Assembly (NCBI GenBank): GCA_016207885.1
Contig: JACQZE010000005.1
Coordinates: 197,158 to 261,157, forward strand
Length of the DNA stretch: 64,000 nucleotides
Reading direction: 5' to 3'
DNA from: Nitrospirota bacterium
GTDB taxonomy: Bacteria > Nitrospirota > Thermodesulfovibrionia > UBA6902
Part shown: positions 819 to 44,976 of the stretch, piece by piece
How the letters are laid out: each line of letters starts with the position of its first letter
Numbering within the stretch: position 1 is the stretch's first letter
Program-made: the position numbers and the translations under genes
The notes under the pieces: model-generated
Database searches by the model: none
What the model saw: only the letters and a program-made list of their open reading frames with translations
What the model was told of the DNA's origin: nothing

Positions 819-1305
819 GTTTGATCTTCTTGTATCTCCTGGCTACCCCCAGAATGATAAAGTAGCTTGCGATCGATGAAAGAGTACATACTATAAAAGA
901 GCCTACAAAAAAAGATTTGATCAGCGGCATCAGGTCGAGTATAAGATTGAAAAAATTATCAGAATCCGTTACGAGGCTCTTAAGCCATGCCATGACCGTA
1001 GTGAATGTCATGGCGTTCCAATCCACTTCAGGAAGGACATCTTTTATCATAAGGATCTTTGCTCCGAGCCATACAGAAAATGTGGAGATCGGCACAATGG
1101 TCCACGGGTTGTTGACGCTCACCCCTACAAAAGCAACCAGTTTGTTCAGGCGGAATATCCACGCGAGAAAGATGCCTCCTACATAGTGAAGGCCGAGGAA
1201 TGGCGAGTTGCCCATGAATACCCCGAGTGCAAACGCAAGCGCGATGCGGTGCGGCGTCTCATGCACCTGCATTATGCTTTTGAATTTGTCTCTGAGATAA
1301 GCCAT
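808..1305 (-). CDS. DUF2062-like small membrane protein
   Basis: 165-aa ORF with hydrophobic helices and an ...ETPHRIALAFALGVFMGNSPFLGLH... motif typical of DUF2062. It overlaps the M50 start by 11 nt. Confidence 0.5.
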   Translation of the reverse strand: MAYLRDKFKSIMQVHETPHRIALAFALGVFMGNSPFLGLHYVGGIFLAWIFRLNKLVAFVGVSVNNPWTIVPISTFSVWLGAKILMIKDVLPEVDWNAMTFTTVMAWLKSLVTDSDNFFNLILDLMPLIKSFFVGSFIVCTLSSIASYFIILGVARRYKKIKHAA

Positions 1306-1325
1306 AAAATAAAATCTCTAATTAT

Positions 1326-1396
1326 GTCATTCCGGCTTGTCCGGAATCACTTTTTCAATATGAATAAGAGCATGATTCCGGACAAGCCGGAATGAC
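1326..1396. repeat. Palindromic intergenic repeat (REP-like): GTCATTCCGGCTTGTCCGGAATC, a 23-nt spacer, then its reverse complement
   Basis: Perfect 23-bp inverted arms. The same element recurs at 44874-44931, and a half-site lies at 42088-42110. Confidence 0.7.
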
Positions 1397-1428
1397 AACC
1401 AGTTAATATGACAACTTAATGATGTGAT

Positions 1429-2379
1429 CTATTTTCTGAAATGCTCGTACCCTTCTGACCTGAACGCCTGTTTTTTGCCGTTGGAGTCTATTATATATCG
1501 TCCCTTATTTATTATCTCCCCGATCCTGAAGGCGTCTTTCCTGTTTTTTGCTGAAGAGCTGAAGAGAAGGACAAAATCCTCTCCGCCTTTTAACGCGTAG
1601 CTGAGCGGGTCTTTGCCTGACTTCTTTGCGACGGCTAATATTTCTTCTGAGAGAGGGATGTTATCAGAATATATAATTGCGCCGGCATCGCTCTCATCAC
1701 ATATGTGGCTTAAGTCTATCAGCAGCCCGTCGCTTACATCGATCATCGCTGTTATATCTTTTGTCTTTTTTAACGGTGCAGGTTCTGGCATCAGGTGGCA
1801 TTTGCAAAGATATTCCTTATCTATCCCTTTCACTCTCTTACCCTTGCCCTGCTTCAATATCTCAAGACCCATTGCCGAGTTGCCGAGGGTTCCGGCCACA
1901 TAGATGCTGTCTCCCGGCTTTGCTCCTTTGCGTGAGATAACCCTCTTTGCTTCTCCTATGATCGTGCCGCTGAGCACAAGGTTATGTTTTGAGCTTGAGG
2001 TGTCTCCGCCGATAACTGCGACTCCGTGCATATCAGCCAGTTTTTTTATGCCCCGATATAGATCTTTGATGTCATTTGCTTCACACCTTTCAGGTATTCC
2101 GATATTCAGGAGAAAGTATTTCGGCTTGCCGCCCATCGCATAGATATCACTCAGGTTAACTGCAAGCACCTTATGCCCGAGTTGATAATAGGAGGTGAAT
2201 TTCAGGTCAAAATGAACGCCTTCAACAAGCATGTCAGAAGAGATCAGGGTTGTTCCAGTCCCTGGCTTTACAGCAGCGGCATCGTCGCCTATGTTCAGCA
2301 GAACATCCTTTGAACTGTTTTTACAGATTCTCTTGATCTTTTTTATCAGGCCGAATTCGCCAAGTTGAGATAGCTTCAT
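1429..2379 (-). CDS. thiL: Thiamine-monophosphate kinase
   Basis: 316 aa of the AIR-synthase-related PurM fold. The N-terminus (EFGLIKKI...LNIGDDAAAV...DMLVEGVHF) is characteristic of ThiL. Confidence 0.8.
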   Translation of the reverse strand: MKLSQLGEFGLIKKIKRICKNSSKDVLLNIGDDAAAVKPGTGTTLISSDMLVEGVHFDLKFTSYYQLGHKVLAVNLSDIYAMGGKPKYFLLNIGIPERCEANDIKDLYRGIKKLADMHGVAVIGGDTSSSKHNLVLSGTIIGEAKRVISRKGAKPGDSIYVAGTLGNSAMGLEILKQGKGKRVKGIDKEYLCKCHLMPEPAPLKKTKDITAMIDVSDGLLIDLSHICDESDAGAIIYSDNIPLSEEILAVAKKSGKDPLSYALKGGEDFVLLFSSSAKNRKDAFRIGEIINKGRYIIDSNGKKQAFRSEGYEHFRK

Positions 2380-2399
2380 GGTTTCATCGGACAGGAAAC

Positions 2400-4805
2400 C
2401 TAATGCGGCCTGTTCTTGCCGCGCCCTTTTTTAAGCGCTGCCTTCAGCACCTCATCCATCGTATCAACAAGGGTGAACTCCATATCTTTTTTTATGTACT
2501 TTGGTATCTCTTCCAGGTCCTTCTGGTTTCTTTTCGGAATGATCATCCTGCTTATGCCCATCCTCTTTGCCGCAAGAGTCTTCTCCTTAAGCCCGCCTAT
2601 CGGCAGCACCCTGCCTCTCAGCGTTACCTCTCCTGTCATAGCGGTGCTCTTGTAAACAGGCCTTCCGGTAAATGCCGATGCAATGGCAGTTGCCAGGGTT
2701 ATGCCTGCTGAAGGGCCGTCTTTAGGTATGGCTCCCGCGGGAACATGTATATGAATATCATTTTTTGCAAAGGCGGTGCTCTCTATGCCTATCTCATTTG
2801 CCTTTGAACGTATATAGCTTCTTGCGGCATAAGCAGACTCCTTCATTACATCGCCTAACTGGCCGGTGAGCGTTATATCGCCTTTGCCCTTCATTATCGT
2901 GGCTTCTATATAGATAATATCTCCGCCGGTCTCTGTCCATGCAAGGCCGGTTGATACGCCGACCTCATCTTTTTCCATCTCTTCTTCCGGCAAATATTTC
3001 GGAGCGCCTAAATATTTTGAGAGGTTAACCGAGGAAATGTGATATATCTTATCCTTGCCCTCTGCGATCTTTCTGGCGACCTTTCTGCACACGTTCGCTA
3101 CCTCACGCTCAAGATTCCTTACGCCGGCTTCTCTTGTGTAGTGCGTCACCATCTGGATTACCGCGCTGTCGGCTATCTTCAGGTTCTTTTCGGTAAGCCC
3201 GTGCTCTTCAAGCTGCTTTGTGATCAGATAGTTTCTGGCGATGCCGAGCTTCTCCTCAGCCGTATACCCGGAGAGGTATATTATCTCCATCCTGTCCCGA
3301 AGCGGAGACGGTATCGGATCGATAAGGTTGGCTGTGGTTATGAACATTACATTGGTCAGGTCAAAAGGCACGCCGAGGTAATGGTCTGTAAACGCAAAGT
3401 TCTGCTCAGGGTCAAGCACCTCAAGCAACGCGGAAGCCGGGTCGCCCCTGAAGTCCATGCCTATCTTGTCGACCTCATCGAGCATGAAGACAGGGTTGTT
3501 CTTTCCTGCTGCCTTGATGCCCTGAATTATCCTTCCGGGCATAGCGCCGACATATGTCCTTCTGTGCCCCCTTATCTCAGCCTCATCCCTCACTCCGCCT
3601 AAAGACATTCTGAAGAACTCTCTTCCAAGCGCGCGCGCAATGGATTTCCCCAATGATGTCTTGCCGACGCCCGGAGGCCCGACGAAGCATAGTATGGGGC
3701 CCTTCATCCCGGACTTTCCCTTGGCCTTTTCTTTAAGTTTTCTTACACCGAGGTATTCAAGTATCCTCTCTTTTACCTTCTCAAGGTCATAATGGTCTTC
3801 ATCAAGCACCTGTTTTCCCTTTTTGAGGTCAAGGTTATCCTTTGTTGCCTTGGACCACGGGATCTCCACGAGCCAGTCAACATAGGTCCTTATCGTCCCT
3901 GCCTCGGCAGAGTCGGGATGCATCTTCTCAAGCCGGCTGATCTGCTTGAGCGCCTCCTTTTCGACCTTCTTAGGCATCTTCACTTCTTCGACCTTCTGTT
4001 TCAGTTCAAATATCTCCTCGGTCTTTTCATCTATCTCGCCAAGCTCTTTCTGTATGGCCTTAAGCTGCTCTCTGAGGAAGTATTCGCGCTGGGTCTTGTC
4101 TATCTCTCCCTTTGCGTCTGACTGGATCTTCTGCTGGACAAGAAGGAGTTCCACCTCTCTGCTGAGGATCTCGCTTATTCTCTTAAGCCTCATTACAGGA
4201 TCAAGTTTCTCAAGGAGTTCCTGCGCCTGATCCGCCTTTAATCCGAGGTTTGAAGCTATGAGGTCGGCAAGCCTTCCGGGTTCGTCGATATTCTCTATCA
4301 GCAGAATTATATCCGGCATAAAGGATTTGCCGAGCGCCACTGATTTATCCAGCAGCTCCTTGACGTTGCGGATAAGCGCTTCAACCTCGATGGTCAGCTC
4401 ATGCTCTTTAGTGTCAGCCAGCTTCTCTATCTCTCCTATGAAATAAGGGTCTGTCTGTGTAAAATTGGTTATCCTTGCCTTTGTTATGCCCTGAACAAGG
4501 ACCTTTGACCTGCCGTCCGGGAGTTTTAAAGTCCTTAGGATACTGCCTACAGTTCCGATCCTGTAAAGGTCATCTTTGGTAGGGTTCTCAACATCAACAT
4601 TCTTCTGTGTGACAAGCATTAAAAGCTTGTTCTCTCCCACGGCATTCTCAATAGCCTTTATCGAAACATCCCTGCCGACGAATAACGGAAGTATCATATA
4701 CGGGAAGATAACTATATCTCTCACAGGGAGCACAGGCAAGGCAGAAGGAACCTCGACATTGCGTTCATCCTTTGCATTGATCTCTTTTGCGTCTATATCA
4801 GTCAT
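2400..4805 (-). CDS. lon: ATP-dependent Lon protease
   Basis: 801 aa with a Lon N-domain, a AAA+ Walker A (GPPGVGKTS) and a C-terminal Ser protease domain ([10 protein letters not shown]). Confidence 0.95.
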
Positions 4806-5701
4806 TGTTTCTCCTTTTGGATTTTGGGCAGTATCGACAACAGATATTTTCTGAAATCGTTTTTTACAGCCGGGTTCTTGAGGCCGAGCTCAACCGTGGC
4901 CGTGAGAAATCCGACCTTGTCGCCGGCGTCATATCTTTTGCCTTCAAAGAGGAAACCGTAAACAGGTTTCTTCTTCAGCATCGCGTTTATCGCGTCGGTC
5001 AGCTGGATCTCTCCGCTTTTTCCGGGCTTGACCTTTTCTATATATTTGAAGATGTCGGCGGTAAGTATATACCTTCCTATGATCGCGAGATCGGACGGGG
5101 CGTCAGCCGCTTTCGGTTTTTCCACCATGCCCGTTACCTTATACAGGTTCTTCTTTATCTCTCTGCCGGCTATTACCCCGTAATTATGTATCTCTGATCC
5201 CGGCATCCTCTCCAGCGCCAGTATCGGCGTCTGGTATTGATCGTAAAGCTTTATCATCTTTCCAAGCAGGTCATCGTCAGGGTCTATTATATCATCGCTC
5301 AGGATGACTGCAAACGGCTCATCATTTACAAAAGGTTTTGAACAGTAGATGGCATGGCCGAGCCCTAACGGAGCGTTCTGCCTTATATAAGCAAAATGAA
5401 GGTGGTCTAACTTTTTGATCTCCGCAAGCATGGCGTGCTTGCCCTTCTTTTTAAGTGTCTCCTCAAGTTCAAACGCGGAATCAAAGTGGTTTTCGATCGC
5501 CCTCTTTGATTTGCCGGTAATCATTATGAATTCATTGATTTCGCATTTCTGAGCCTCTTCAACCGCATATTGGATCATGGGTTTATCAACGATCGGAAGC
5601 ATCTCTTTTGGAGACGCTTTTGTCGCAGGCAGAAACCTTGTTCCCAGGCCAGCAGCCGGAAAAACAGCTTTTTTTATCTTGCTTCTGGTTTTTTTAGGCA
5701 T
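4802..5701 (-). CDS. galU: UTP--glucose-1-phosphate uridylyltransferase
   Basis: 299 aa with an N-terminal [34 protein letters not shown] signature. It overlaps the lon stop by 4 nt. Confidence 0.9.
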
Positions 5702-5970
5702 TTAGAACTCCTGAATAAGCTATGGGTTTAAGACGTAAATATTCTACCATGTATATATAGTTAATGAAAGCAGCAGAATATATAACTTTATTCTACAGTT
5801 ATGCAAATACCTGCCATTATTTTGATAGTCTGGACATTTCTATTTTGGTTTGACATGTATGGATAAGTGTTGTTGTAAAGTCATTTATTCTAAGCGTATA
5901 CTAACACACAGGGTTAGCGGCACAAACTTAAGATTAAAATTTTTTTACTATCCTCATGCGAACATATTAA

Positions 5971-7344
5971 ATGAAAAAATCATTATTTATTACCGGATCC
6001 AGTGGTTTTATATCGGGCAATTTCATTCAAAAACTTAACCTTGCTGATTTTGAGCAAATATTATGTATCAGCAGGAAAGAGAGCGCAGTTACAGATTCTC
6101 TTTCAAAATACGGTAATTTTAAGTTCATAAAAGGGGATATATTCGTCCCTGAACTCTACAAAGAATATCTTCCATCAATTGACACTGTAGTACATTTTGC
6201 CGCAGTTACAGGAAAGGCCATGCCGGAGGAATACTTCAGAACGAATTTAGCTGCAACAGAGGCACTTCTTAAGGAGTGTGTACGGTGCGGAGTTAAGAAC
6301 TTTCTGTTTGTCAGCTCAATAGCTGTTAAATTCCCGGATATCTCCAGGTATTACTATGCGCAGTCAAAGCTTAAGGCAGAGGAGCTCGTTAGAAAAAGCG
6401 GGCTTAACTATTCGATAGTTAGGCCAGCAATAGTGATAGGAAAGGGCTCCTCTATATTAGAGAGTTTTGTGAAGGTTGCCAAGATGCCACTGTCACTTAT
6501 ATTCGGCAATGGAAAAACAAAGATACAGCCGATATATACAGACGATCTTTCAGAATGTTTTCAGCATATAATTAACGAGGATATATTCAATAATGAAATA
6601 TATGAGCTCGGCGGCCCTGAGATACTGACCATTGATGAGTTTGTAACAAAGATAGCCGGTAGTTATCTGGGCAGGGCGCCAAAATTGATCCATTTCCCCT
6701 TAGGGCTTCTGGTACCGGTTCTTTCAGTGCTTGAGAAATTCATTTATTCAGCGCTGCCTTTTAATGTAGGCCAGCTCTCTTCTTTCCGTTTTGACGGCAC
6801 TATCTCTGAAAACAGGGTGTTTTCTGACATGTCGCTTCATATGAAAAATGTTGATGAAATGCTTGCGCTGAGCGCTGAAAAAAAAACTTCTGCCGATGCA
6901 GATAAACTAAAAAAAGAATGCGCTGTATTCTCACTTTATCTTATATGCAGGAATCCTGATGAATATGTGACTGGCAAGTATAAAGATGCTCACATCGCGG
7001 GTGTTGTTGCTAATGACTCAGGGCTGAAGCAGTTTGACAGTTTTTTGGCAAGGGCGGCCGGCTTCCACCCGATACTTACAAAACTCGCAGACGTATACAC
7101 AAGCGTTTTTTTTAAAGGTTCTGTCCTCAGGAAAAAACTGGTGCTTCTCCTTGCCATTATTGAAAGCAGCGCCCCGGCATCCTTCTATTTTGATTCAGCG
7201 CCGAGATCCGCCAGGCTCGCTGTCCTGGGCAGGTTCTTAAGGAGTGCGATATTTTTTACTCTCAGCCTGTTAGTATCTTTTGTAATATTCTCACCTTTTC
7301 ATCTGTTTTACAAAGCAACTTCAGGAGATAAAAATGAAGGCTGA
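5971..7344 (+). CDS. NAD(P)-dependent epimerase/dehydratase-family protein with a ~150-aa C-terminal extension of unknown function
   Basis: N-terminal Rossmann GxxGxxG motif (ITGSSGFISGNF) and an SDR-like Y...K region. The C-terminal third matches no family I recognise. Confidence 0.65.
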   Translation: MKKSLFITGSSGFISGNFIQKLNLADFEQILCISRKESAVTDSLSKYGNFKFIKGDIFVPELYKEYLPSIDTVVHFAAVTGKAMPEEYFRTNLAATEALLKECVRCGVKNFLFVSSIAVKFPDISRYYYAQSKLKAEELVRKSGLNYSIVRPAIVIGKGSSILESFVKVAKMPLSLIFGNGKTKIQPIYTDDLSECFQHIINEDIFNNEIYELGGPEILTIDEFVTKIAGSYLGRAPKLIHFPLGLLVPVLSVLEKFIYSALPFNVGQLSSFRFDGTISENRVFSDMSLHMKNVDEMLALSAEKKTSADADKLKKECAVFSLYLICRNPDEYVTGKYKDAHIAGVVANDSGLKQFDSFLARAAGFHPILTKLADVYTSVFFKGSVLRKKLVLLLAIIESSAPASFYFDSAPRSARLAVLGRFLRSAIFFTLSLLVSFVIFSPFHLFYKATSGDKNEG

Positions 7345-35671: not shown

Positions 35672-37546
35672 CTACTTCTTCATCAGCGCCTTAACGCTTG
35701 GGAACGCATCCATGTTCGTGTGCGGGATGAACAATCCTGAGACATACTCATCCATAAATGAGCGTGAGACAGAGAGTTCGAGATATGTCATCCTCTCTGC
35801 TATCTTCTCGCCTTCTTTCCGCAGTTTTCTGGAGAGCGAGCAGAGGTATGCGCCTGTGACAGAGGTATTGCCTAAGAATTTAAACTTCTCTCTCGGCATG
35901 TCAGGAAGCATTCCAAGTATTATCGCTTTTTCAATATCAAGGAACTTTCCGAATCCGCCTGCTATATAGACCTTTTGAATATCATCAAATGTAAAACCAA
36001 CTTCGCTGAGAAGTATCGAAATGCCCGCGTAGATGGCGGCTTTTGCCCTGAGTATATTCTCTATGTCAGGCTCGGTCAGAACGATATCCCTGTCCTTTCC
36101 GTAATGGATCACGAACTCAAGTCCGTCCTCGCCCATCCTCACTCTCTTTGAAACATCTTTCTGCAGCTTGCCCCTCTGGTCAATGATGCCTGTGAAGAAC
36201 ATCTCAGATATCGCGTCGATCATTCCCGAGCCGCAGATGCCGAGCGGCTGAGATTCGCCTATCACCTCGATCTCAGGCTCAAGCGTGCTGCGGTTTATCT
36301 TCACATCCTCTATCGCTCCCTCTGTCGCGCGCATGCCGTGCTTCATGCCGCTTCCTTCAAAGCACGGGCCTGCTGAACATGCGGCAGCCACAAGCAACTC
36401 AGAGTTGCCGAGCACTATCTCGCCGTTGGTGCCGATATCCATAAATAGAGAGAGTTCCTCCCGTTTATACATCCCTGACGCAAGAACGCCTGAGACGATG
36501 TCCCCGCCTACATAACTTGAGACTGAAGGGAAGGTGTATACAGGCGTATTCGGGTTTAGATTTATTCCGAGCTCGCCTGTGAAAGAGATCGGGAAAGTAT
36601 TTGCAGTCGGAATATAAGGTTCCTCTCTTATTGATGAAGGGTCGAGGCTGAAGAAGAGCTGTGTCATTGTCGGGTTGCCCGCGATAACGAGCTGGTCTAT
36701 CGTATCAGGGTCTGTAGCGTGCGCCTTCATCAGCAGCGCCAGCATGATGTTGATGTCATTTATGACAGCCTCATTGATATTGGCGAGCTCGCCGTGCTCT
36801 GTCGCATGCACGATCCTTGTGATGACATCATCCCCGAACCTTATCTGCGAATTATATGTTGATGCGATATCAACTACCTTGCCGTCTGTCAGGTCGATCA
36901 GATAGAGCGCAAGCGTTGTGGTACCGATATCAACAGCAACGCCGTAGCGCGGCGACTCTTTATCTCCCGGAAAGATATTAATGACCTCATGGCAGTCATC
37001 GGTATGTATCGAGGATATCGTCACCTCCCATTTATCTTTTCTCAATGTCGCGGAAAGGTTCTTCAACAATCTGAAAGGCACCTTTAAACAGGAGAGTCCG
37101 TATGCATCCAGCCCTCTCTTGAGCCTCGCAAGGTCGCTGATATTGTCATCAAGTGACGCAGGAGGAAGCTGAAGCAGTGTCCTCTCAGTAAGCGGGTCGA
37201 GCTCTGCGCCTGAGGCTGCGAAGAGGGCCTGAAGGTCTTTGGACTTTTCAGTCGCTATCTTGCCTTCAATCGTGAGGACAGACTCTTTGGGAATATCTAT
37301 TGTAAGGTCGCTTTGCGGAAAGGTCTTGCAGGCAAGCGCATAGCCGCGGCCTATCTCTTCGTGTGAAAGCTTTGTCTTTGCTTTAGAATCTGCAGAGCCT
37401 GACTTTACGATAACCTTGCACTTGCCACAGGTGCCTTTGCCCGCGCATGAAGATGTAAGGAACACGCCCTCTCGGTTGAGGCTTTCAAGGAGCGATGAAT
37501 CAGCGGATGCAGGAATGACCTTGCCGGATGCGAGTGTTATCTTCAT
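35672..37546 (-). CDS. 2Fe-2S ferredoxin plus ASKHA-domain protein (RACo-like reductive activator of corrinoid proteins)
   Basis: N-terminal plant-type ferredoxin Cys pattern (SSCAGKGTCGKCKV...ALAC) and a C-terminal ASKHA/DUF4445 ATPase fold. I chose the start MKITLASG. Confidence 0.7.
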   Translation of the reverse strand: MKITLASGKVIPASADSSLLESLNREGVFLTSSCAGKGTCGKCKVIVKSGSADSKAKTKLSHEEIGRGYALACKTFPQSDLTIDIPKESVLTIEGKIATEKSKDLQALFAASGAELDPLTERTLLQLPPASLDDNISDLARLKRGLDAYGLSCLKVPFRLLKNLSATLRKDKWEVTISSIHTDDCHEVINIFPGDKESPRYGVAVDIGTTTLALYLIDLTDGKVVDIASTYNSQIRFGDDVITRIVHATEHGELANINEAVINDINIMLALLMKAHATDPDTIDQLVIAGNPTMTQLFFSLDPSSIREEPYIPTANTFPISFTGELGINLNPNTPVYTFPSVSSYVGGDIVSGVLASGMYKREELSLFMDIGTNGEIVLGNSELLVAAACSAGPCFEGSGMKHGMRATEGAIEDVKINRSTLEPEIEVIGESQPLGICGSGMIDAISEMFFTGIIDQRGKLQKDVSKRVRMGEDGLEFVIHYGKDRDIVLTEPDIENILRAKAAIYAGISILLSEVGFTFDDIQKVYIAGGFGKFLDIEKAIILGMLPDMPREKFKFLGNTSVTGAYLCSLSRKLRKEGEKIAERMTYLELSVSRSFMDEYVSGLFIPHTNMDAFPSVKALMKK

Positions 37547-37561
37547 TTTATTTCTTCTGTT

Positions 37562-37770
37562 CCCCTCTTGCCTAAAGCACCTACTTTTGGTAGGCAAAGA
37601 GGGCCTGCCTGCCGGTAGGCAGGGTTAGGGGAGATTTTGCAATTGTAGATCATTCCATTATTTCTTTATTGATGTATTAATTTTCTGATTATAATAAAGC
37701 ATTATTATAAAATCCCCCCGTGCCCCCCTTGCCTAAAGCACCTACTTTTGGTTGTTAAAGTGGGGATTTT
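37562..37770. repeat. Composite intergenic repeats: two copies of CTTGCCTAAAGCACCTACTTTTGG (37567-37590 and 37728-37751) with hairpin-forming partners
   Basis: Perfect 24-bp direct repeat. Copy 1 lies inside a CCTCTTTGCCTA/TAGGCAAAGAGG palindrome. Confidence 0.6.
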
Positions 37771-37790
37771 ATAAGAGACTTGCCTGATAA

Positions 37791-38762
37791 TTATTTTCTA
37801 AGCTCTTTGGCTGCTTCCATCGCGTGGTATGTGATTATGATGTCAGCGCCTGCCCTTTTTATGGAGGTGAGAATCTCCATCATGACCTTATTCTCATCTA
37901 TCCAGCCGAGCTTGGCTGCCGCCTTGACCATTGAGTATTCGCCGCTGACATTGTATGCGGCAACAGGCAGGTCAAAGGTATTTTTAATATCCGATATGAT
38001 GTCAAGATATGACAGCGCAGGCTTGACCATTACGATGTCAGCGCCTTCTTCTATATCAAGCGCAACTTCCCTAAGCGCCTCGATCCTGTTAGGAGGGTCC
38101 ATCTGGTAGCTCTTCCTGTCACCGAACTGCGGCACTGATTCTGCCGCATCCCTGAACGGGCCGTAAAAAGCAGAAGCGTATTTCGCGGCATAGCTCATTA
38201 TCGGTGTATCATCAAAACCGTGCTCATCAAGCGCGTCTCTTATATAACCTATCCTGCCGTCCATCATGTCTGAAGGGGCGATGATATCCGCGCCTGCCTC
38301 TGCATGCGAGAGCGCCTCTTTCGCAAGCACCTCAAGCGTCGGGTCATTCAGCACCTTTTCTCCCTTTATAATTCCGCAGTGGCCGTGGTCAGTATATTCG
38401 CACAGGCAGACATCCGTTATGACAAGAAGGCCGGGAACCTTATTCTTTATCGCCTTTACAGCAGTCTGAACCACGCCGTTCTTTTTATATGCCTCTGACG
38501 CATGGGCATCCTTATGCTCAGGAATGCCAAAGAGCAGAACAGCAGGTATGCCGAGCTTGTATGCTGCCTGCGCTTCCTTGACGATGAGATCCACAGACAT
38601 CTGAAAACATCCGGGCATCGCGTTTATCTTCTTCTTTACGTTCTTGCCAAAGGTCACGAACAATGGATATACGAGGTCATCCGTACTGAGATGTGTTTCA
38701 CGAACCAGCCTTCTTATGCTTTCATTTGCCCTGAGCCTTCTCGGCCTGTTTAGTAAAGACAT
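37791..38762 (-). CDS. hemB: Porphobilinogen synthase (delta-aminolevulinic acid dehydratase)
   Basis: HemB signatures (RPRRLR, the active-site Lys region ...VKPAL...). Confidence 0.9.
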
Positions 38763-38883
38763 ATCCGCTCCTTTTATATATGAAATAGGTTAAAAACTGC
38801 TTGTCTTGATTGATAAAGTATACCAGATTTGATAGTTTGAATCCCCTGTATTTCAGGGCTGTTTTCTTTTGATTGTTCATTAA

Positions 38884-39729
38884 TTATTCTTTTGGATCTT
38901 GCCATTTCCAAGAGCTTTCCTCATATCTATGCTCTTTGTCTTCATCACAATAACCAGAGTTATCATATGGTGGCTCTGGAAACCAGAGCATTGTAAGCAC
39001 TACCCCATAATCTATCATTGGCACGCAGCTTTCGAAAAGAGTAGTGGCATTATCTATCCCCTTCCCATTAAACCAGAACGTAGCATGTACTTCTTGTGAC
39101 TCGGCTTCTTGAACGACACCTTTTAGGGAATATGATGCTGTTAAAGTACCTGGAGAAACTTGTTTGCCATGTTCAATCCAGTATGGAAAAGAAGATGATT
39201 TTTGAAACCATTTTATTTTATTCTCTGAAGTTGCAATCAAGACACAACAATCTTCAGTATGTTTTGCGAATTTGATCGCGGTTGCTGTCAGACTTGTCCC
39301 ACAGTCATCGGCAAGTTCTTGAATACTTTCGAAATCTGGCTTGTATTGATAAAGCAATGGCTTAAATAGCCTTTCAGGTAAGAGAAATTCTGACGCAAAC
39401 TGATCAGCCTCTACTTCTTTTATATCCTTGTTCTTAAAGGGATTAGGTATACATTGATAGTTATTTTGATCATGAGAGGGGATACAATGATGAGCAATTT
39501 CATGCGCTAAGGTAAAATGCTTTCTACCTATATTTGTAATATTCTTATTTATGTTGATTACAACTTTGTCACCCACGCGAAGATACAACCCATCAAAACT
39601 ATCTGCATCAACTTCTACAACGTTGAGTTTTAAAGAGCAGGCAATAGTAAAAGGATTGACGGGCAAACTAATTACATTCAAGTCGTTTAGAAGCGTAGAG
39701 GCGTAATATTCAGGATTCAAGGCAATCAT
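38884..39729 (-). CDS. ImmA/IrrE-family Zn metallopeptidase (COG2856) with a C-terminal sensor-like domain; CapP-like
   Basis: HExxH (LAHEIAHH) plus E.EA..FA..LLP (EVEADQFASEFLLP), followed by a ~110-aa extra domain. It overlaps the upstream HTH gene by 4 nt. Confidence 0.75.
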   Translation of the reverse strand: MIALNPEYYASTLLNDLNVISLPVNPFTIACSLKLNVVEVDADSFDGLYLRVGDKVVININKNITNIGRKHFTLAHEIAHHCIPSHDQNNYQCIPNPFKNKDIKEVEADQFASEFLLPERLFKPLLYQYKPDFESIQELADDCGTSLTATAIKFAKHTEDCCVLIATSENKIKWFQKSSSFPYWIEHGKQVSPGTLTASYSLKGVVQEAESQEVHATFWFNGKGIDNATTLFESCVPMIDYGVVLTMLWFPEPPYDNSGYCDEDKEHRYEESSWKWQDPKE

Positions 39730-40067
39730 TTCCTTTCGGATTTCAAAAATTTGATCTGTCGTAAAATCATTTCTCTGTCTTTTGCCGACAGGTTTTTGAA
39801 ATCCCTGAAAAGTAGCTGCACATCGGGATCTTGGAGAATGTCTTCGAGTTCATCTTTAGATGTTTGTCCCAAAAGGCGACTGACAGTAGTCTTCAGAGCT
39901 TTAGCAAGCTTTTCTAATACCTCAGTTGATGGATATCTATCTCCATTTTCAATTTGACTGATTGTAGAGGGGCGAACACCTGCGATTTCTGCCAACTTCG
40001 TTTGGTTCCAGCCAGTTTTAATCCTTTCCGCTTTTATTCTATCCCCTACAGTTTCAGACATACTCAT
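39726..40067 (-). CDS. XRE-family helix-turn-helix transcriptional regulator; CapH-like
   Basis: Cro/C1 HTH (IKTGWNQTKLAEIAGVRPSTISQIENGDRYPS). Confidence 0.8.
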   Translation of the reverse strand: MSMSETVGDRIKAERIKTGWNQTKLAEIAGVRPSTISQIENGDRYPSTEVLEKLAKALKTTVSRLLGQTSKDELEDILQDPDVQLLFRDFKNLSAKDREMILRQIKFLKSERK

Positions 40068-40115
40068 TCTCCCTTCTTAAAATATATTGATATGATAACA
40101 GAATTAACAATAAAT

Positions 40116-40190
40116 AATCACGGCTGTGAAATATTAAATCACAGTGGCTTGACTTTATTGTCACAACTGTGATAATGTAAATCACGTTAG
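40116..40190. promoter_or_regulatory. Divergent promoter/operator region: four TCAC-Nx-GTGA inverted-repeat sites, and a TTGACT-N17-ATAATG promoter with a palindrome (TCACAACTGTGA) in its spacer
   Basis: Sites at 40116-40132, 40137-40149, 40160-40176 and 40179-40190. The -35 is at 40149-40154. Confidence 0.45.
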
Positions 40191-40233
40191 AGAGTTTTAG
40201 TGGGTTATAGATAATATTAAAAAGGAGGTGAAA

Positions 40234-40407
40234 ATGGCAAAGAATCCACCAATAGGAGATGGACATAGACATGGAGCAGTCAGAGATCGCTCACAGGTGC
40301 AAAATTCCAAAACAGAAAGATGGACGAAGCGCGACACTGAGACTGGTCGCTTCAAGGATGTTAAATCAGACGGAACTCCGTTTAAGGGAGTTCGCAAGGA
40401 AAAATAG
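40234..40407 (+). CDS. Small (57-aa) highly basic hypothetical protein
   Basis: AAAGGAGGTG RBS 6 nt upstream of the ATG. It encodes MAKNPPIGDGHRHGAVRDR...KGVRKEK, and is absent from the ORF track only because it is shorter than 60 aa. Confidence 0.5.
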   Translation: MAKNPPIGDGHRHGAVRDRSQVQNSKTERWTKRDTETGRFKDVKSDGTPFKGVRKEK

Positions 40408-40421
40408 GAGGTAGTAAGGAA

Positions 40422-40715
40422 ATGGAAAAAGAAAAAGAGCACAAGGAAGACCACAAAAATGAAGCACCCGGTCAAAACAAAGAATATGCGATCATTGTGA
40501 ATGGTCGGCAAAAGGTCGTGACCACAAAAGAGCTTTCGTTTGACGAAGTTGTCGCTTTAGCTTTTGACAATCCTCCGACTGGCCAGAATATCGTTTTCAC
40601 TGTGACATATAGACGGGGCGAAGGCAATAAGCCCGAGGGAACCTTGGTCGAGGGGGGAAAAGTCAAAATCAAAGAGGGAATAATCTTTAATGTCACAGCA
40701 ACTGATAAATCGTAA
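40422..40715 (+). CDS. Beta-grasp (ubiquitin-like / 'multiubiquitin'-like) small protein lacking a C-terminal GG
   Basis: A charged, disordered N-terminus is followed by ...YAIIVNGRQKVVTTKELSFDEVVALAF...VKIKEGIIFNVTATDKS, a pattern resembling ThiS/MoaD/Ubl beta-grasp proteins. Confidence 0.5.
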   Translation: MEKEKEHKEDHKNEAPGQNKEYAIIVNGRQKVVTTKELSFDEVVALAFDNPPTGQNIVFTVTYRRGEGNKPEGTLVEGGKVKIKEGIIFNVTATDKS

Positions 40716-42042
40716 CAGTGATCTAAAGCGTCTGCGAGACGAAGGCTATGATGTAGAGGTTAGGTCGAACCATCTACTGGTCAAGCAAGTTCCGTATGTG
40801 AACTCTATCAAAGAGATTAAGTTTGGTATACTCGTGTCCGAGTTGAATGTGGCTGGTGACATGACAACTACGCCTAAGGATCATACGGTTTATTTTTCGG
40901 GAGAACATCCTTGCGATAAGAACGGGGTAGCGATGACCAAGATCATAAATCAAAGTGTTCAAAAATCACTTGGTCATGATCTTATTGTTCACCATTATTT
41001 CTCAAGCAAGCCTTCGAGTGGCTGTTACAAGGACCATTATGAGAAGATGGCGACATATGTCGCCATCATTTCTAGTCCTGCTCATTCGATCGACCCAAGC
41101 GTGACAGCAAATACCTTAGCTGCCGGACATATTCTTGTTAATAAAGGTTTGCTGAGTTCTATTGAAAGTGAGGAGGAATTAGAAGGTATATTGGTTCATG
41201 AAATAGCACACGTTGAAAAGAGGCATGTATTAAAACAATATTATGCATTGTTAAACCAACAAGCTGCTAATGACATGATTGCTGCCATGGCTACTGGAAT
41301 AGCAGGCGCGGCTGCAAGAGATGGTAATAGAGATGTCGCAGCTATTGCAGTTGGGATATCTGTTGCTGCAAGGGTTGCCGTAGACATTTTTTACAAGGGG
41401 TATCCTGTAGAGCAAGAAAGAGAAGCTGATGAACTTGCAATTCTATATTTTGATCAAAATAATATGGATAAACAAATTCTTGAGAATGTGTTTAAGAAGT
41501 TAAAATTTTATAGTCTTGCAACTGTTGATAATCCTGACCCTGCATCTAATTCACACCCCTTGCTCGAAGAGAGAATTGCACGGGTTAAACAAACAAAGTT
41601 TAAGAAATTTAATAACGAACATTTTTTATATAAAGGACATCCTTCACAACCACCCGTGCAAATTGATCTTCTTTATCAAAGCACTTTCAATGATACTTCA
41701 AATATTTTCTTCTATATTAATGATTACAGTTTCTTTGATAAATACCAGAGTAAAGAAGCAGAAAAAATATATTTAACATTAGAAGATGATAACGGAAAGC
41801 AAAAATATGCACTTAGTTTGCTTGACCAAGTAAGGGATATGTGGGGTGTTTATTTAGTTTTAAACATCAACAACGCAACGACCATCAAGAATTTAAACAA
41901 TATTTCTATAATTATTGAGACAAAAGATGAGGATATGATGAGAAACAAAATGGAAGTAATCGACTTCAGTAAAGGTAGTATTGATTACGAGTGCCATATA
42001 GAAGCAGAAAAGAAAGGTGGACATTGTTTGTGTATTCATTAA
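40690..42042 (+). CDS. Two-domain protein: an N-terminal alpha/beta domain with an 'HPC' motif (possible E2/UBC-like domain) fused to an M48-like Zn metalloprotease (HExxH...ExxAD)
   Basis: HEIAHVEKRH, then about 75 aa later EQEREADELA (the M48 third-ligand motif). N-terminal ...HTVYFSGEHPCDKNG.... Visibly AT-rich. It overlaps the upstream gene by 26 nt. Confidence 0.6.
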   Translation: MSQQLINRNSDLKRLRDEGYDVEVRSNHLLVKQVPYVNSIKEIKFGILVSELNVAGDMTTTPKDHTVYFSGEHPCDKNGVAMTKIINQSVQKSLGHDLIVHHYFSSKPSSGCYKDHYEKMATYVAIISSPAHSIDPSVTANTLAAGHILVNKGLLSSIESEEELEGILVHEIAHVEKRHVLKQYYALLNQQAANDMIAAMATGIAGAAARDGNRDVAAIAVGISVAARVAVDIFYKGYPVEQEREADELAILYFDQNNMDKQILENVFKKLKFYSLATVDNPDPASNSHPLLEERIARVKQTKFKKFNNEHFLYKGHPSQPPVQIDLLYQSTFNDTSNIFFYINDYSFFDKYQSKEAEKIYLTLEDDNGKQKYALSLLDQVRDMWGVYLVLNINNATTIKNLNNISIIIETKDEDMMRNKMEVIDFSKGSIDYECHIEAEKKGGHCLCIH

Positions 42043-42087
42043 TAGATTTATTTCACCCTCCCGAGTAAAAAGTCCCTCCACAAGATA

Positions 42088-42110
42088 GATTCCGGACAAG
42101 CCGGAATGAC
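42088..42110. repeat. Half-copy of the palindromic repeat (GATTCCGGACAAGCCGGAATGAC) upstream of alaS
   Basis: Identical to the right arm of the 1326-1396 element. Confidence 0.6.
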
Positions 42111-42213
42111 GCAAACACGGAACTGAGGCATAACCAACAATACAAGAACCATAAATATATACAGTTTTTTGTATAATACGGTATCAAAAAACCAGCAGGA
42201 GAAAAATCCCGGA

Positions 42214-44850
42214 ATGAATAGCAGCGATATAAGAAAACTCTTCATCGATTTCTTTAAGGAGAAAGGGCATAAGGCGCTTCCAAGCTCCCCTCTTTTGCCT
42301 GTTGATGACCCTACACTTTTATTCACCAACGCAGGTATGGTCCAGTTCAAATCCATCTTTCTGGGCGATGTGGAGAGCCAGCACAAACGGGCTGTGACCG
42401 TTCAGAAGTGCCTGAGGGCGGGCGGCAAGCACAATGACCTTGAGAATGTCGGAAGGACGGCAAGGCACCATACCTTCTTTGAGATGTTAGGCAACTTCTC
42501 ATTCGGCGATTATTTCAAGAGAGAGGCGTGTGAATGGGCTTGGGAATTTCTAACTGAAAAGGTTCATCTCCCTGCTGACAAGCTGATGATAACCGTTTTC
42601 AATGATGACGACGAGGCTGCGGAGATATGGCAGAAGCATATAGGAATACCTGCCAACCAGATATTCAGGCTCGGAGAGAAGGACAACTTCTGGCAGATGG
42701 GCGACACAGGGCCGTGCGGGCCGTGCTCTGAGATACTGATAGACCAGGGGCCGGAGATGGGATGCGGAAAGCCCGGCTGCATGGTTGGATGCGACTGCGA
42801 CAGATACCTTGAGATATGGAACCTCGTATTTATGCAGTACAACAGGGATACGGCAGGCAAACTTCACCCGCTGCCCAAGCCGAGCATTGACACAGGCATG
42901 GGGCTTGAGAGGCTTGCCGCTGTGCTGCAGGGAAAGACGAATAACTTTGACTCTGACCTATTCATGCCGATCATAAAATATGTTGAAGGTATTTCAGGTA
43001 AAAAATACGGGAAAGATAAAGCAAACGATGTCTCTATGAGGGTCATAGCCGACCATATAAGGTCATCGGCATTCGTGCTTTCAGAGGGGCTTGTGCCTTC
43101 AAATGAAGGAAGAGGTTATGTCTTAAGAAGGATCATAAGAAGGGCTGCAAGGCACGGGCTCATGTTAGGCATCAAGGGGCCGTTCCTGCATGATGTGCTT
43201 GACGCGGTATATAAGATGATGTCCGGCCCGTATTCTGAACTGAATGAAAATATCGGGATGAGCAAAAAGGTCCTTAAGTTTGAAGAAGAGAGATTCGCGC
43301 ACACACTCTCTTCAGGCATGGATCTGCTGGACAAGGTAATTAATGAGGTAAGGGCATCGGGCAAAGAGACGATACCGGGCACCGAACTCTTTAAACTTTA
43401 TGACACATTCGGATTTCCGCTTGACCTTGCGAAGGACATTGCTGAAGACAACGGACTGAAGATAGATGAAAAAGGTTTTAATGAGGAGATGGAGCTTCAG
43501 AAGACAAAGGCGCGCGCATCATGGGTCGGCGGCGGAGAGGAAGTTTCAGGCATATACAAAGAGATAGAAACTCTTGTCGGAGCCACTGAATTCACAGGCT
43601 ATGACGCTCCTGATAAAACAGAGAGCGTGGTCAAGGCGATGATAAAGAACGGCGCCCTCATCAAAGAAGCAAAAGAAGGTGAAGAGGTTGAGGTAGTTTT
43701 AGACAGGACACCGTTCTACGGCGAATCAGGCGGACAGGTGGGCGATACCGGCATGATGGAGCATGGCGAAGGGCTATTGAAACTTGAGGTGATTAATGCA
43801 AAAAGAACCCACAACCTTATCCTGCATTCAGTAAGAATAATCAAAGGCACGTTAAGGCCTGACATGTATGTGAAGCCTGTTATAGATGAAGAGAGAAGAG
43901 CATCTGTCAAACGCAATCATACAGCCACGCATATTCTGCATGCGGCTCTGAAGGAAGTGTTAGGCGACCATATAAAACAGGCAGGCTCGTTTGTAGCGCC
44001 TGACCGGCTGAGGTTTGACTTCAACCACTTCTTTGCCATGGATGAAAGGGAGATCAAAGAGGTCGAGCGGATAGTGAATGAAAAGATAATCAGGAATATG
44101 CCTGTCCATGTCTCTGAGACATCGCTTAACAATGCGATAGCACACGGAGTGGTGGCGCTCTTTGGTGAAAAATACGGAGAGACTGTCAGGGTCGTAAAGG
44201 CGGGAAATTACTCTGCCGAACTGTGCGGGGGAACGCACTGCAGCGCGACAGGTGATATCGGCCCGTTCAAGATAATCTCTGAAGGAAGCGCGGCAGCAGG
44301 CATAAGAAGAATAGAGGCGCTGACAGGATTTTCCGCGCATAAGTTCATTAATGACGAGGAAGACGAGCTTAAAAAGACGGCAGGGCTTCTTAAGGCAACC
44401 CCTCTTAATGTAGCAGATAAAGTGCGCAAGGCCTTAAGCGACCTCAAGCTGCTTGAAAAAGAGATGGAAAAGCTGAGGAGCAGTTCAGCCTCTAATGATA
44501 TAGAGAGCATCCTTGGAAAGACGGTTGAGATAGACGGCATAAAGGTGCTTGCGCACAAGATCGACGGGCTTGATATGAAGACGCTCAGAGACCTGGCGGA
44601 CAAGCTGAAAGATAAGATGAACTCAGGTGTCATAGTCCTCGGCTCCATACTGAACGGCCAGGCATCATATGTATCCCTCGTAACAAAAGACCTCGCCTCG
44701 CGTTTCCACGCGGGGAACATATTAAAGAGCGTCACCGGCGGCAAGGGCGGCGGCAGGGCTGATATGGCTCAGGGCGGGACAAAAGATATCGATGGAATTG
44801 ATATGGCAATCTCCTCAGTACCTGATATAATCAAGGGAGAGACAAAATAA
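42214..44850 (+). CDS. alaS: Alanyl-tRNA synthetase
   Basis: Class II aaRS catalytic domain, editing domain and C-terminal DHHA1, about 880 aa. I chose the ATG at 42214 (MNSSDIRKLFIDFF). Confidence 0.95.
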   Translation: MNSSDIRKLFIDFFKEKGHKALPSSPLLPVDDPTLLFTNAGMVQFKSIFLGDVESQHKRAVTVQKCLRAGGKHNDLENVGRTARHHTFFEMLGNFSFGDYFKREACEWAWEFLTEKVHLPADKLMITVFNDDDEAAEIWQKHIGIPANQIFRLGEKDNFWQMGDTGPCGPCSEILIDQGPEMGCGKPGCMVGCDCDRYLEIWNLVFMQYNRDTAGKLHPLPKPSIDTGMGLERLAAVLQGKTNNFDSDLFMPIIKYVEGISGKKYGKDKANDVSMRVIADHIRSSAFVLSEGLVPSNEGRGYVLRRIIRRAARHGLMLGIKGPFLHDVLDAVYKMMSGPYSELNENIGMSKKVLKFEEERFAHTLSSGMDLLDKVINEVRASGKETIPGTELFKLYDTFGFPLDLAKDIAEDNGLKIDEKGFNEEMELQKTKARASWVGGGEEVSGIYKEIETLVGATEFTGYDAPDKTESVVKAMIKNGALIKEAKEGEEVEVVLDRTPFYGESGGQVGDTGMMEHGEGLLKLEVINAKRTHNLILHSVRIIKGTLRPDMYVKPVIDEERRASVKRNHTATHILHAALKEVLGDHIKQAGSFVAPDRLRFDFNHFFAMDEREIKEVERIVNEKIIRNMPVHVSETSLNNAIAHGVVALFGEKYGETVRVVKAGNYSAELCGGTHCSATGDIGPFKIISEGSAAAGIRRIEALTGFSAHKFINDEEDELKKTAGLLKATPLNVADKVRKALSDLKLLEKEMEKLRSSSASNDIESILGKTVEIDGIKVLAHKIDGLDMKTLRDLADKLKDKMNSGVIVLGSILNGQASYVSLVTKDLASRFHAGNILKSVTGGKGGGRADMAQGGTKDIDGIDMAISSVPDIIKGETK

Positions 44851-44873
44851 AGGGTTGTTTATTATGCACCAGT

Positions 44874-44931
44874 TGCGTCATTCCGGCTTGTCCGGAATCC
44901 TTCTGGGAAAAGATTCCGGACAAGCCGGAAT
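44874..44931. repeat. Complete copy of the palindromic repeat (GTCATTCCGGCTTGTCCGGAATC, a 12-nt loop, then its reverse complement) just after alaS
   Basis: Perfect 23-bp arms. It probably also serves as the alaS terminator hairpin. Confidence 0.7.
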
Positions 44932-44976
44932 GACAGATTTTAAACTGACTTTAAATAATAATTCAGGAGGTTTGTT

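What the first reader, a model, noticed from the sequence alone, without database searches (positions are those of the whole stretch)
40690..42042. The 450-aa protein pairs an M48-type HExxH...ExxAD protease core with an N-terminal domain containing a UBC-like 'HPC' motif
HEIAHVEKRH followed about 75 residues later by EQEREADELA matches the metal-ligand spacing of M48 (HtpX/Ste24). Unlike HtpX, the protein has no TM helices. Instead it carries about 150 N-terminal residues whose predicted helix, beta-meander and HP-Cys order is reminiscent of E2/UBC active-site geometry (...TVYFSGEHPCDKNG...), and about 150 C-terminal residues of unknown fold. I do not know of an E2-like domain fused to a metalloprotease. 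It could either conjugate or deconjugate the adjacent Ubl-like protein.
Basis: inference. Interest (0 to 1): 0.65.

Follow-up and report, generated by a model that had tools for sequence, protein, structure and literature searches.

The report
Broken Bub operon fused to protease
The 450-aa protein is a one-off in-frame join between the first 142 codons of a known bacterial ubiquitin-like E2-E1 gene (bubBD) and the last two-thirds of an unrelated M48 protease gene, so it is most likely the scar of a deletion in an anti-phage-type operon and not a new kind of enzyme.

Summary
The ORF (40690-42042, +) and its motifs are real. [quoted passage not shown] The upstream gene is the Ubl BubA, preceded by a PDC-S38-like gene and a divergent CapH/CapP regulator pair.

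The E2-M48 architecture is unique. Residues 1-140 are 89% identical to the start of 395-aa BubBD proteins. Residues about 143-433 match residues about 265-559 of a family of 537-624-aa M48 proteases with a hydrophobic N-terminal anchor. No protein in two very large searches matches both halves. DNA homology to intact bubA-bubBD-bubE operons stops at 41110-41117. The E1 domain, BubE and the first roughly 260 residues of the M48 parent are absent, and both Pfam domains are clipped at the join.

An independent per-run assembly reproduces the whole hemB-to-alaS stretch exactly, so an assembly artefact is unlikely.

The 'HPC' cysteine is conserved (90-100%), but its histidine is not. The family's published nucleophile is a serine, which I place at the invariant S105 (FSSKP).

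Verdict: a decayed Type II Bub operon carrying a chimeric ORF. Without an E1 encoded in the operon it cannot carry out Bub-type conjugation on its own. Interest is low to moderate.

The parts
38884..39729 (-). capP: ImmA/IrrE (M78) metallopeptidase, the regulator partner of CapH
   Evidence: PADLOC capP E 2e-58, covering 6-241 of 242 profile positions. Pfam Peptidase_M78. 61% identical to the CapP of the intact Bub island L090.
39726..40067 (-). capH: XRE-type HTH repressor
   Evidence: PADLOC capH E 1e-20. Pfam HTH_3. 54-73% identical to CapH in L088, L090 and L091.
40118..40176 (+). Promoter-like site TTGACT-16-(TG)GATAAT (40149-40176), overlapped by TCAC-N4-GTGA / TCACA-N2-TGTGA palindromes (40118-40129 and 40161-40172). 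These palindromes are candidate CapH operators.
   Evidence: Best sigma-70-like match in 38700-42300, 10 of 12 with TG. Palindromes read directly from the sequence. Function is inferred.
40234..40407 (+). 57-aa PDC-S38-like small basic protein, first gene of the operon
   Evidence: PADLOC PDC-S38 E 2.5e-33, covering 1-57 of 57. 65-68% identical to the first gene of CapH/CapP-controlled operons in L090, L091 and L088.
40422..40715 (+). bubA: single beta-grasp Ubl (Multi_ubiq) with a charged N-terminal extension. Intact, and overlaps the next gene by 26 nt.
   Evidence: Pfam Multi_ubiq E 8e-20. Its C-terminus ...IFNVTATDKS is identical to BubA of the intact operons L004, L005 and L090. The same 26-nt overlap occurs in L005 and in the E. 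coli operon L093.
40690..41117 (+). 5' part of bubBD (codons 1 to about 142): E2-like BubB domain (DUF6791). It carries H65, P74-C75, G79, S105-S106-K107-P108 and K119.
   Evidence: 89% amino-acid and 86-88% DNA identity to intact bubBD in L005/L006, ending at 41110-41117. DUF6791 HMM positions 1-134 of 149 only, against 1-149 in the intact P0003. AF2 model pLDDT 87.6.
41110..41124 (+). Breakpoint zone of the chimera (...GTGACAGCAAATACCTT | AGCTGCCGGACAT...)
   Evidence: The bubBD alignments stop here and M48-family similarity starts here. There is no repeat or mobile-element end at the site.
41118..41598 (+). 3' part of an M48 catalytic domain (from the LxxG strand onward): H170ExxH174, E243xxAD247, H289, R295
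   Evidence: Pfam M48 HMM positions 33-185 of 186 only, against 4-182 in the intact relative P0002. 45% identical to P0002 residues 257-559. Of the M48-family-conserved positions from L143 onward, all but P144 (Ala here) are retained.
41599..42042 (+). C-terminal beta-sandwich domain of that M48 family, plus the stop codon
   Evidence: Conserved in P0002, P0006 and other family members. AF2 predicts strands over residues about 303-428. No Pfam match and no significant PDB match.

Best explanation
The locus between hemB and alaS is a low-GC island that carried a CapH/CapP-regulated Type II Bub operon with the gene order PDC-S38-like gene, bubA, bubBD, bubE. An illegitimate recombination or deletion joined bubBD after about codon 142 (window about 41117) in frame to about codon 265 of an M48 protease gene lying in the same orientation. 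That event removed four things: the linker and E1 adenylation domain of BubBD, BubE, whatever lay in between, and the first roughly 260 residues of the protease.

The lost protease residues comprise a hydrophobic N-terminal anchor, an N-terminal domain and the start of the M48 domain. From general knowledge of M48-type folds I take that start to be the backing helix and first strand; I did not test this.

The resulting 450-aa ORF is still placed to be transcribed and translated. The promoter-like site, the regulator genes and the 26-nt bubA overlap are all intact. Without an E1 encoded in the operon, however, it cannot adenylate or charge BubA. Its protease half is N-terminally clipped and, lacking the anchor, would no longer be exported.

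I therefore read it as a recent, probably non-functional relic of the Ubl pathway, not as an E2-protease enzyme.

Shown here: the chimeric composition, the breakpoint, the uniqueness and the missing parts.
Inferred: the order of events, loss of function and recency.
For: 1. Two parents. Residues 1-140 are 89% identical to residues 1-140 of the 395-aa DUF6791-ThiF protein P0003. Residues 135-433 are 45% identical to residues 257-559 of the 559-aa M48 protein P0002.

2. Breakpoint. DNA identity of 86-88% with intact bubA-bubBD loci stops at 41110-41117.

3. Uniqueness. Among 5.8 billion clusters, only the query itself carries PF20590 plus PF01435 among the listed hits. In an exhaustive HMMER search of 1.84 billion representatives, each of the top 150 hits matches either residues 1 to about 145 or residues about 135-430, never both. 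The M48 hits always start at their own residue 200-325.

4. Intact relatives. L005 and L004 have bubA, bubBD, bubE. L090 has capP/capH facing a 57-aa gene, bubA, bubBD, bubE, with every shared protein 54-68% identical to the window's.

5. Both domains are clipped. DUF6791 covers 1-134 of 149 and M48 covers 33-185 of 186, against full coverage in the parents.

6. The missing parts (E1 domain, BubE, M48 N-terminus) are nowhere else in the 64-kb window.

7. The junction is real. Logan contig L087 from run SRR12113402, recorded in 2 samples, is 100% identical to window 37232-42452.

8. Foreign origin. GC is 30-43% across 38.8-42.1 kb, against about 49% for hemB and alaS.

9. E1 is required. The published biochemistry shows that conjugation needs the E1 adenylation site and the crossover-loop Tyr.
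Against: - The ORF stays open for 308 codons beyond the join.
- The family-invariant residues of both halves are retained. These are H65, P74, C75, G79, S105, K107 and K119 in the E2 part, and HExxH, E243, D247, H289 and R295 in the M48 part. The only M48-family-conserved position lost past the join is P144, which is Ala here.
- dN/dS of the bubB fragment against intact relatives is 0.10, the same as between intact genes (0.12), and its dN to the outgroup is not raised. This means either that the event is recent or that the fragment is still under selection.
- The pre-deletion allele was not found, so the deleted interval and the original position of the M48 gene are unknown.
- The M48 part is more AT-rich than expected for a resident gene, so the join may predate arrival in this genome.
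Confidence: 0.75

Rival explanations
1. The chimera is a functional new fusion. The BubB-like domain keeps its affinity for BubA and delivers BubA or BubA conjugates to the M48 active site. This would be a metalloprotease substitute for BubE, or a decoy/regulator. Alternatively it accepts BubA from an E1 encoded elsewhere in the genome.
For: - The ORF is intact and keeps the catalytic and invariant residues of both halves.
- dN/dS is 0.10 with no acceleration.
- The promoter-like site, the CapH/CapP pair, PDC-S38 and BubA are intact, and the 26-nt overlap with bubA is preserved.
- Peptidase fusions do occur in Bub systems, for example JAB-E1 in Type I BubCD.
Against: - It has a single occurrence among about 15 billion proteins.
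- Both domains are truncated at the join.
- Every relative of the M48 half carries about 205-325 further N-terminal residues, including a hydrophobic anchor in those scanned, so this half is probably misfolded or mislocalised.
- There is no E1 or BubE in the 64-kb window.
- The first 20 residues after the join model poorly, with pLDDT 43-70.
Confidence: 0.12
2. The join is an assembly or binning artefact. Reads from a bubBD-carrying element and from an M48 gene of another genome were joined by the assembler.
For: - The source is a metagenome-assembled genome.
- The architecture is a singleton.
- The region has heterogeneous, low GC.
- An intact 86%-identical bubBD occurs in a sister run of the same study, SRR12113407.
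Against: - An independently built per-run contig (L087, SRR12113402, recorded in 2 samples) is 100% identical over 5,221 bp. It spans hemB, the island, the junction and the start of alaS.
- There is no repeat of assembler k-mer length at the breakpoint.
- Both flanks are ordinary housekeeping genes on one 314-kb contig.
- A chance artefact would be in frame only one time in three.
Confidence: 0.05
3. The join arose in a donor or mobile element before the island entered this genome. On this view the M48 fragment was never a resident gene upstream of alaS, and the whole 3.2-kb segment (capP to the M48 3' end) was acquired as it is now.
For: - The M48 part has 30-37.5% GC against 49% for the flanks. 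Relatives of this M48 gene sit only about 3 points below their own loci.
- An imperfect 17-nt direct repeat lies at both borders, 38868-38884 and 42027-42043 (D16).
- The M48 relatives show no synteny with hemB or alaS.
Against: - No other copy of the chimera exists in any collection searched.
- The 17-nt repeat is AT-rich and only 82% identical, so it may be chance.
- A host-type REP-like palindrome lies right after the ORF, at 42083-42114.
Confidence: 0.08

Closest known systems
Type II Bub operon (BubA, BubBD E2-E1 fusion, BubE); Ye, Gong, Chambers and Corbett, bioRxiv 2024 (PMC11601596)
   Same: - BubA (Multi_ubiq) lies directly upstream with the same 26-nt overlap.
- The N-terminal domain is the same Pfam family (DUF6791) as the E2 part of BubBD. 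It is 45% identical to an E. coli BubBD and up to 89% identical to metagenomic ones.
- The invariant Ser/Lys/His set is present.
- A CapH/CapP regulator pair is present, as in 31% of Bub operons.
   Different: - There is no ThiF/E1 domain, so no adenylation site and no crossover-loop Tyr.
- There is no BubE (DUF6527).
- The DUF6791 match lacks its last 15 HMM positions.
- The rest of the ORF is an M48 fragment.
A family of 537-624-aa M48 metalloproteases with a hydrophobic N-terminal anchor (P0002, P0006, P0124 and others), distantly related to BepA and to PDB entry 3C37
   Same: - HExxH, the Glu helix motif ExxAD and the downstream HP...R motif are present.
- The hydrophobic hairpin between the ligands is present.
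- The family-specific C-terminal beta-sandwich is present.
- Identity is 45-47%.
   Different: It lacks the roughly 260 N-terminal residues that relatives have. These comprise the hydrophobic N-terminal anchor, an N-terminal domain with an HLHTCNHLP...CGYCF motif, and the start of the M48 domain (HMM positions 1-32).
Type I Bub BubCD (JAB/JAMM metallopeptidase fused to E1; PDB 9EA5) and CBASS Cap2 (E2-E1 fusion)
   Same: These are precedents for fusing a peptidase or an E2 to another enzyme of a bacterial Ubl pathway. The E1 domain of the intact relatives' profile finds BubCD as its best PDB match.
   Different: Those fusions are recurrent, conserved and built around an E1. Here the partner is an unrelated M48 fragment and the fusion occurs only once.
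Canonical eukaryotic UBC/E2 enzymes (HPN motif plus catalytic Cys)
   Same: - The order of elements in the AF2 model is an N-terminal helix, a four-strand meander, an xPC loop right after strand 4 (inferred to be the HPN position) and a long helix.
- The top but non-significant Foldseek hits are Atg10, Cdc34, UFC1, UbcH5c and the TSG101 UEV domain.
   Different: - There is no sequence-profile link. Pfam UQ_con and the Prok-E2 families are not hit, and hhalign against UBE2D2 gives probability 0.6%.
- The published nucleophile is a Ser about 30 residues after the xPC motif, not a Cys 8-10 residues after HPN.

Membership tests
Type II Bub operon | Ubl gene (BubA, beta-grasp / Multi_ubiq) immediately upstream of the E2-E1 gene | tested here: met
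   Pfam Multi_ubiq E 8e-20 at 40422-40715. 68-79% identical to BubA of intact operons, with an identical C-terminus.
Type II Bub operon | E2-like BubB domain with an invariant Ser accompanied by invariant Lys and His | tested here: met
   DUF6791 E 2.8e-53. Conservation across 127 representatives: S105 99%, H65 100%, K107 94%, K119 94%; all are present in the window protein. The assignment of the published S106 to this Ser is by motif. Numbering differs by 1-3 residues between E. coli variants.
Type II Bub operon | E1 (ThiF-type) adenylation domain fused C-terminally to the E2 domain, with a crossover-loop Tyr | tested here: not met
   There is no ThiF match in the ORF. Homology to BubBD ends at residue 140-143. 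There is no E1 fragment elsewhere in the window.
Type II Bub operon | BubE (DUF6527) serine protease gene downstream | tested here: not met
   BubE is present in L004, L005, L090 and L093. It is absent from the window. The ORF is followed by 126 nt and then alaS.
Peptidase family M48 | HExxH plus a third Glu ligand about 60-80 residues downstream; Pfam score above the gathering threshold | tested here: met
   H170, E171, H174 and E243 are present. The score is 69.5 bits against a cut-off of 20.3. The residues align with 3C37 and BepA and are conserved in the closest family.
Peptidase family M48 | Complete catalytic domain (the part N-terminal to the NAxAxPGG strand) | tested here: not met
   Only HMM positions 33-185 of 186 are matched, against 4-182 in P0002. 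The alignment shows that the helix and first strand of relatives (IQEVGNKVLKKWP...YRFQVIED) are replaced by BubB sequence.
Canonical UBC/E2 superfamily | Catalytic Cys shortly after an HPN motif | tested here: not met
   The His of 'HPC' is 30% conserved. C75 is 90% conserved, with His and Ser replacements. The published nucleophile is Ser.
Canonical UBC/E2 superfamily | UBC fold | tested here: inconclusive
CapH/CapP regulator pair | HTH repressor plus M78 metallopeptidase, transcribed divergently from the controlled operon | tested here: met
   PADLOC capP E 2e-58 and capH E 1e-20. The orientation is divergent. The same layout occurs in L090.

The most novel reading that the evidence does not exclude
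The chimera is a working, newly born enzyme. An orphan BubB-type E2-like domain would recruit the neighbouring Ubl BubA (or BubA conjugates) to a cytoplasmic M48 active site. That would give an E1-independent variant of a Bub system in which a metalloprotease replaces BubE. It would be the first E2-like/M48 fusion and a snapshot of domain shuffling in a defence operon.
Probability: 0.08. Interest if true: 0.6.

Novelty: new variant of a known kind. Interest (0 to 1): 0.22.

Why it matters
If the best explanation is right, this is mainly a caution. A striking 'novel domain architecture' in a metagenome-assembled genome can be the in-frame scar of a deletion. The test that exposes it is whether each half has its own full-length family and whether the combination ever recurs.

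It also documents a natural decay state of a Type II Bub operon. The regulators, the small PDC-S38-like gene and the Ubl are kept, while E1 and BubE are lost.

Two side observations could interest people working on Bub systems:
- A Cys that is 90-100% conserved sits in the E2 domain of a pathway described as cysteine-free.
- A conserved 57-aa first gene travels with CapH/CapP in several different Ubl-conjugation operons.

Only if the fusion proved to be active would it matter as a new enzyme type.

Tried and rejected

2. hhalign of the BubBD alignment against human UBE2D2 gave probability 0.6% and no usable alignment of HPC to HPN.

3. A scan of 185,579 species genomes with the M48 half found no close relative (best 40%) and not the source genome. 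Synteny of hemB, M48 and alaS in sister genomes could therefore not be checked.

4. A word-indexed homologue search with the M48 half alone returned only 3 distant proteins and missed P0002 and P0006. The exhaustive HMMER search was needed to see the family.

5. I looked for the deleted halves elsewhere in the window, as an inversion or translocation instead of a deletion. There were none.

6. I looked for repeats, IS ends or long microhomology at the breakpoint and found none. Relatives share TTCCCAG at the equivalent site, but the window reads TTAGCTGCC. The family member P0152 naturally has L-A-A-G there. I therefore do not claim microhomology beyond 2-5 nt.

7. I considered that the M48 family might itself be a Bub or defence component. 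Its relatives sit beside GATase/guaA-type housekeeping genes with no Ubl genes, so I rejected this.

8. Literature searches for 'DUF6791' and 'PDC-S38' found nothing.

9. The published E. coli residue numbers (S106, R219, Y342) do not map one-to-one onto the E. coli STEC383 protein I could retrieve; the offset is 1-3 residues. The Ser assignment therefore rests on motif and conservation.

Full report
**Observation.**
- HEIAH is at residues 170-174 and EQEREAD at 241-247.
- Pfam calls Peptidase_M48 (E 4.3e-19) over residues 135-302 and DUF6791 (E 2.8e-53) over residues 10-144.
- The nearest solved relatives of the protease part are an M48 peptidase (3C37) and BepA.
- The gene just upstream (40422-40715) is a Multi_ubiq Ubl.
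- There is no N-terminal signal or anchor. One hydrophobic stretch (216-234) is present and conserved in the protease relatives.

**What the N-terminal domain is.** DUF6791 is the N-terminal domain of about 395-aa DUF6791-ThiF proteins. Their genes lie between a Multi_ubiq gene and a DUF6527 gene. [quoted passage not shown] (PMC11601596): BubA (Ubl), BubBD (E2-E1 fusion) and BubE.

In that work the E2 and E1 steps run through Ser and Tyr oxyesters, not Cys thioesters. An S106A mutant of E. coli BubBD is inactive, and the invariant Ser is accompanied by invariant Lys and His.

My alignments agree:
- In 117 close relatives, C75 and S105 are both invariant.
- In 127 distant representatives the figures are H65 100%, P74 100%, G79 100%, S105 99%, K107 94%, K119 94% and C75 90% (His in 8, Ser in 2). 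The His of 'HPC' is only 30% conserved.
- An E. coli BubBD that I retrieved is 45% identical without gaps and also has YPC...FSSKP.

The 'E2-like' reading is therefore right at the family level and already published. The Cys is most likely not the nucleophile. From its place straight after strand 4, I infer that it occupies the HPN-like position.

**The architecture is a one-off chimera.**
- Residues 1-140 are 89% identical to residues 1-140 of the BubBD protein P0003, and similarity then stops.
- Residues 135-433 are 45% identical to residues 257-559 of the 559-aa M48 protein P0002 (P0006).
- Of the hits listed from 5.8 billion protein clusters, only the query itself combines PF20590 with PF01435, and it is a one-member cluster.
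- An exhaustive HMMER search of 1.84 billion representatives found 5,561 relatives. Each of the best 150 matches one half only. The M48 hits are 481-624 aa long when complete and match from their residue 200-325 onward.

At the DNA level, identity of 86-88% with intact bubA-bubBD loci ends at 41110-41117, and M48-family similarity begins right there.

Both Pfam domains are clipped at the join:
- DUF6791 covers positions 1-134 of 149, against 1-149 in P0003.
- M48 covers positions 33-185 of 186, against 4-182 in P0002.

The E1 domain, BubE and the first roughly 260 residues of the protease are nowhere else in the window. From general knowledge of M48-type folds, I take the lost start of the catalytic domain to be the backing helix and first strand.

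**Context.** Upstream and divergent lie CapP and CapH (PADLOC E 2e-58 and 1e-20). Then come a strong promoter-like site overlapped by palindromes, a 57-aa PDC-S38-like gene, bubA and the chimera. CapH+CapP accompany 31% of Bub operons.

The relatives of this CapP that I looked up sit next to Ubl-conjugation operons. L090 shows the complete version of exactly this layout: capP/capH facing a 57-aa gene, bubA, bubBD (393 aa) and bubE. Each shared protein is 54-68% identical to the window's.

The island (38.8-42.1 kb) has 30-43% GC, between hemB and alaS at about 49%. Relatives of the M48 half sit among housekeeping genes with no Ubl genes nearby.

**Is the join real?** A contig assembled independently from a single run (Logan, SRR12113402; recorded in 2 samples) is 100% identical to window 37232-42452. 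It covers hemB, the island, the junction and the start of alaS. There is no long repeat at the breakpoint. I rate an assembly artefact at about 5%.

**Relic or new enzyme?**

For function:
- The frame is open for 308 codons past the join.
- The invariant residues of both halves are kept.
- dN/dS of the bubB fragment against intact genes is 0.10, no higher than between intact genes at 0.12, and there is no excess dN to the outgroup.

Against function:
- The fusion is unique.
- Both domains are clipped.
- The protease has lost the hydrophobic N-terminal anchor and about 260 residues that its relatives keep.
- The first 20 residues after the join model poorly.
- The E1 and BubE activities that the published pathway needs are gone.

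An in-frame join is expected one time in three by chance, and unchanged residues are what a recent event would leave. I therefore favour a recent deletion/recombination scar in a Type II Bub operon (0.75). A functional new fusion is the main rival (0.12). Where the M48 gene originally lay, either resident upstream of alaS or already on the incoming element, is unresolved. Its low GC hints at the latter.

**Comparison and novelty.** The parts are known: the Type II Bub E2 domain, BubA, CapH/CapP and an M48 protease family. The locus fails two defining features of a Type II Bub operon (E1 domain and BubE) and one of a complete M48 domain. It is best described as a truncated derivative, which makes it a new variant of a known kind and not a new system. 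Interest is low to moderate (0.22). It would be about 0.6 if the fusion proved active, which I put at about 8%.

Noticed in passing
window 40234-40407 (+); L090 5330-5503, L091 3425-3598, L088 9-182: A 57-aa basic protein (PADLOC candidate PDC-S38, E 2.5e-33) is the first gene after the CapH/CapP promoter here. At 65-68% identity it holds the same position in an intact Type II Bub operon (L090), in a Prok-E2_E + ThiF operon (L091) and next to another CapH/CapP pair (L088). It seems to travel with the regulator module, not with one effector type. I found no literature on it.
   Followed up: partly
window residue C75 of the ORF (about 40912-40914); alignments; L093 3460-4635: The Cys of the xPC motif in the BubB E2 domain is invariant in 117 close relatives. 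It is 90% conserved in 127 distant ones and is also present in an E. coli BubBD. The Bub pathway is nevertheless described as working without catalytic cysteines. Its role (structural, or an HPN-like oxyanion position) is open.
   Followed up: partly
window 1329, 1375, 42083-42114, 44873-44934; L003 4678-4701: A REP-like palindrome (ATTCCGGACAAGCCGGAAT, up to 32 nt) occurs five times in the window. One copy lies just after the chimeric ORF and an inverted pair lies just after alaS. It also occurs in the metagenome contig that carries the closest full-length M48 relative.
   Followed up: partly
window 37559-37603 and 37720-37764: A 45-nt direct repeat (87% identical) lies in the intergenic region between the 641-aa ORF (35672-37597, -) and hemB.
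   Followed up: no
window 38868-38884 and 42027-42043: An imperfect 17-nt direct repeat (82% identical...TTCATTAAT) lies at both borders of the low-GC island, at the stop codons of capP and of the chimeric ORF. It could be an insertion footprint or chance in AT-rich DNA (D16).
   Followed up: no
L004 (SRR12113407) 460-6854: An intact bubA-bubBD-bubE operon, 86% identical in the BubB part, comes from a sister run of the same study as the independent contig of the window locus. It sits next to an 843-aa integrase and an MqsA-like/M78 pair. Related mobile Bub elements therefore circulate in the same habitat.
   Followed up: no
L093 (E. coli STEC383, NZ_CP091026.1 4399170-4407301): This is a Type II Bub operon: a 251-aa three-domain multiubiquitin, a 391-aa ThiF family protein and DUF6527. 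It lies beside a tyrosine integrase and tRNA-Leu, with the same 26-nt bubA/bubBD overlap as in the window. BubA ends in ...NVSRTIQS, compared with ...NVTATDKS here, so neither ends in Gly.
   Followed up: partly
P0002 residues 1-256 (L003 176-943): The N-terminal part that the chimera lacks contains a hydrophobic anchor and a conserved HLHTCNHLP...KPCGYCF motif. The motif is reminiscent of small Cys/His metal-binding modules in exported proteins. Pfam does not call it.
   Followed up: no
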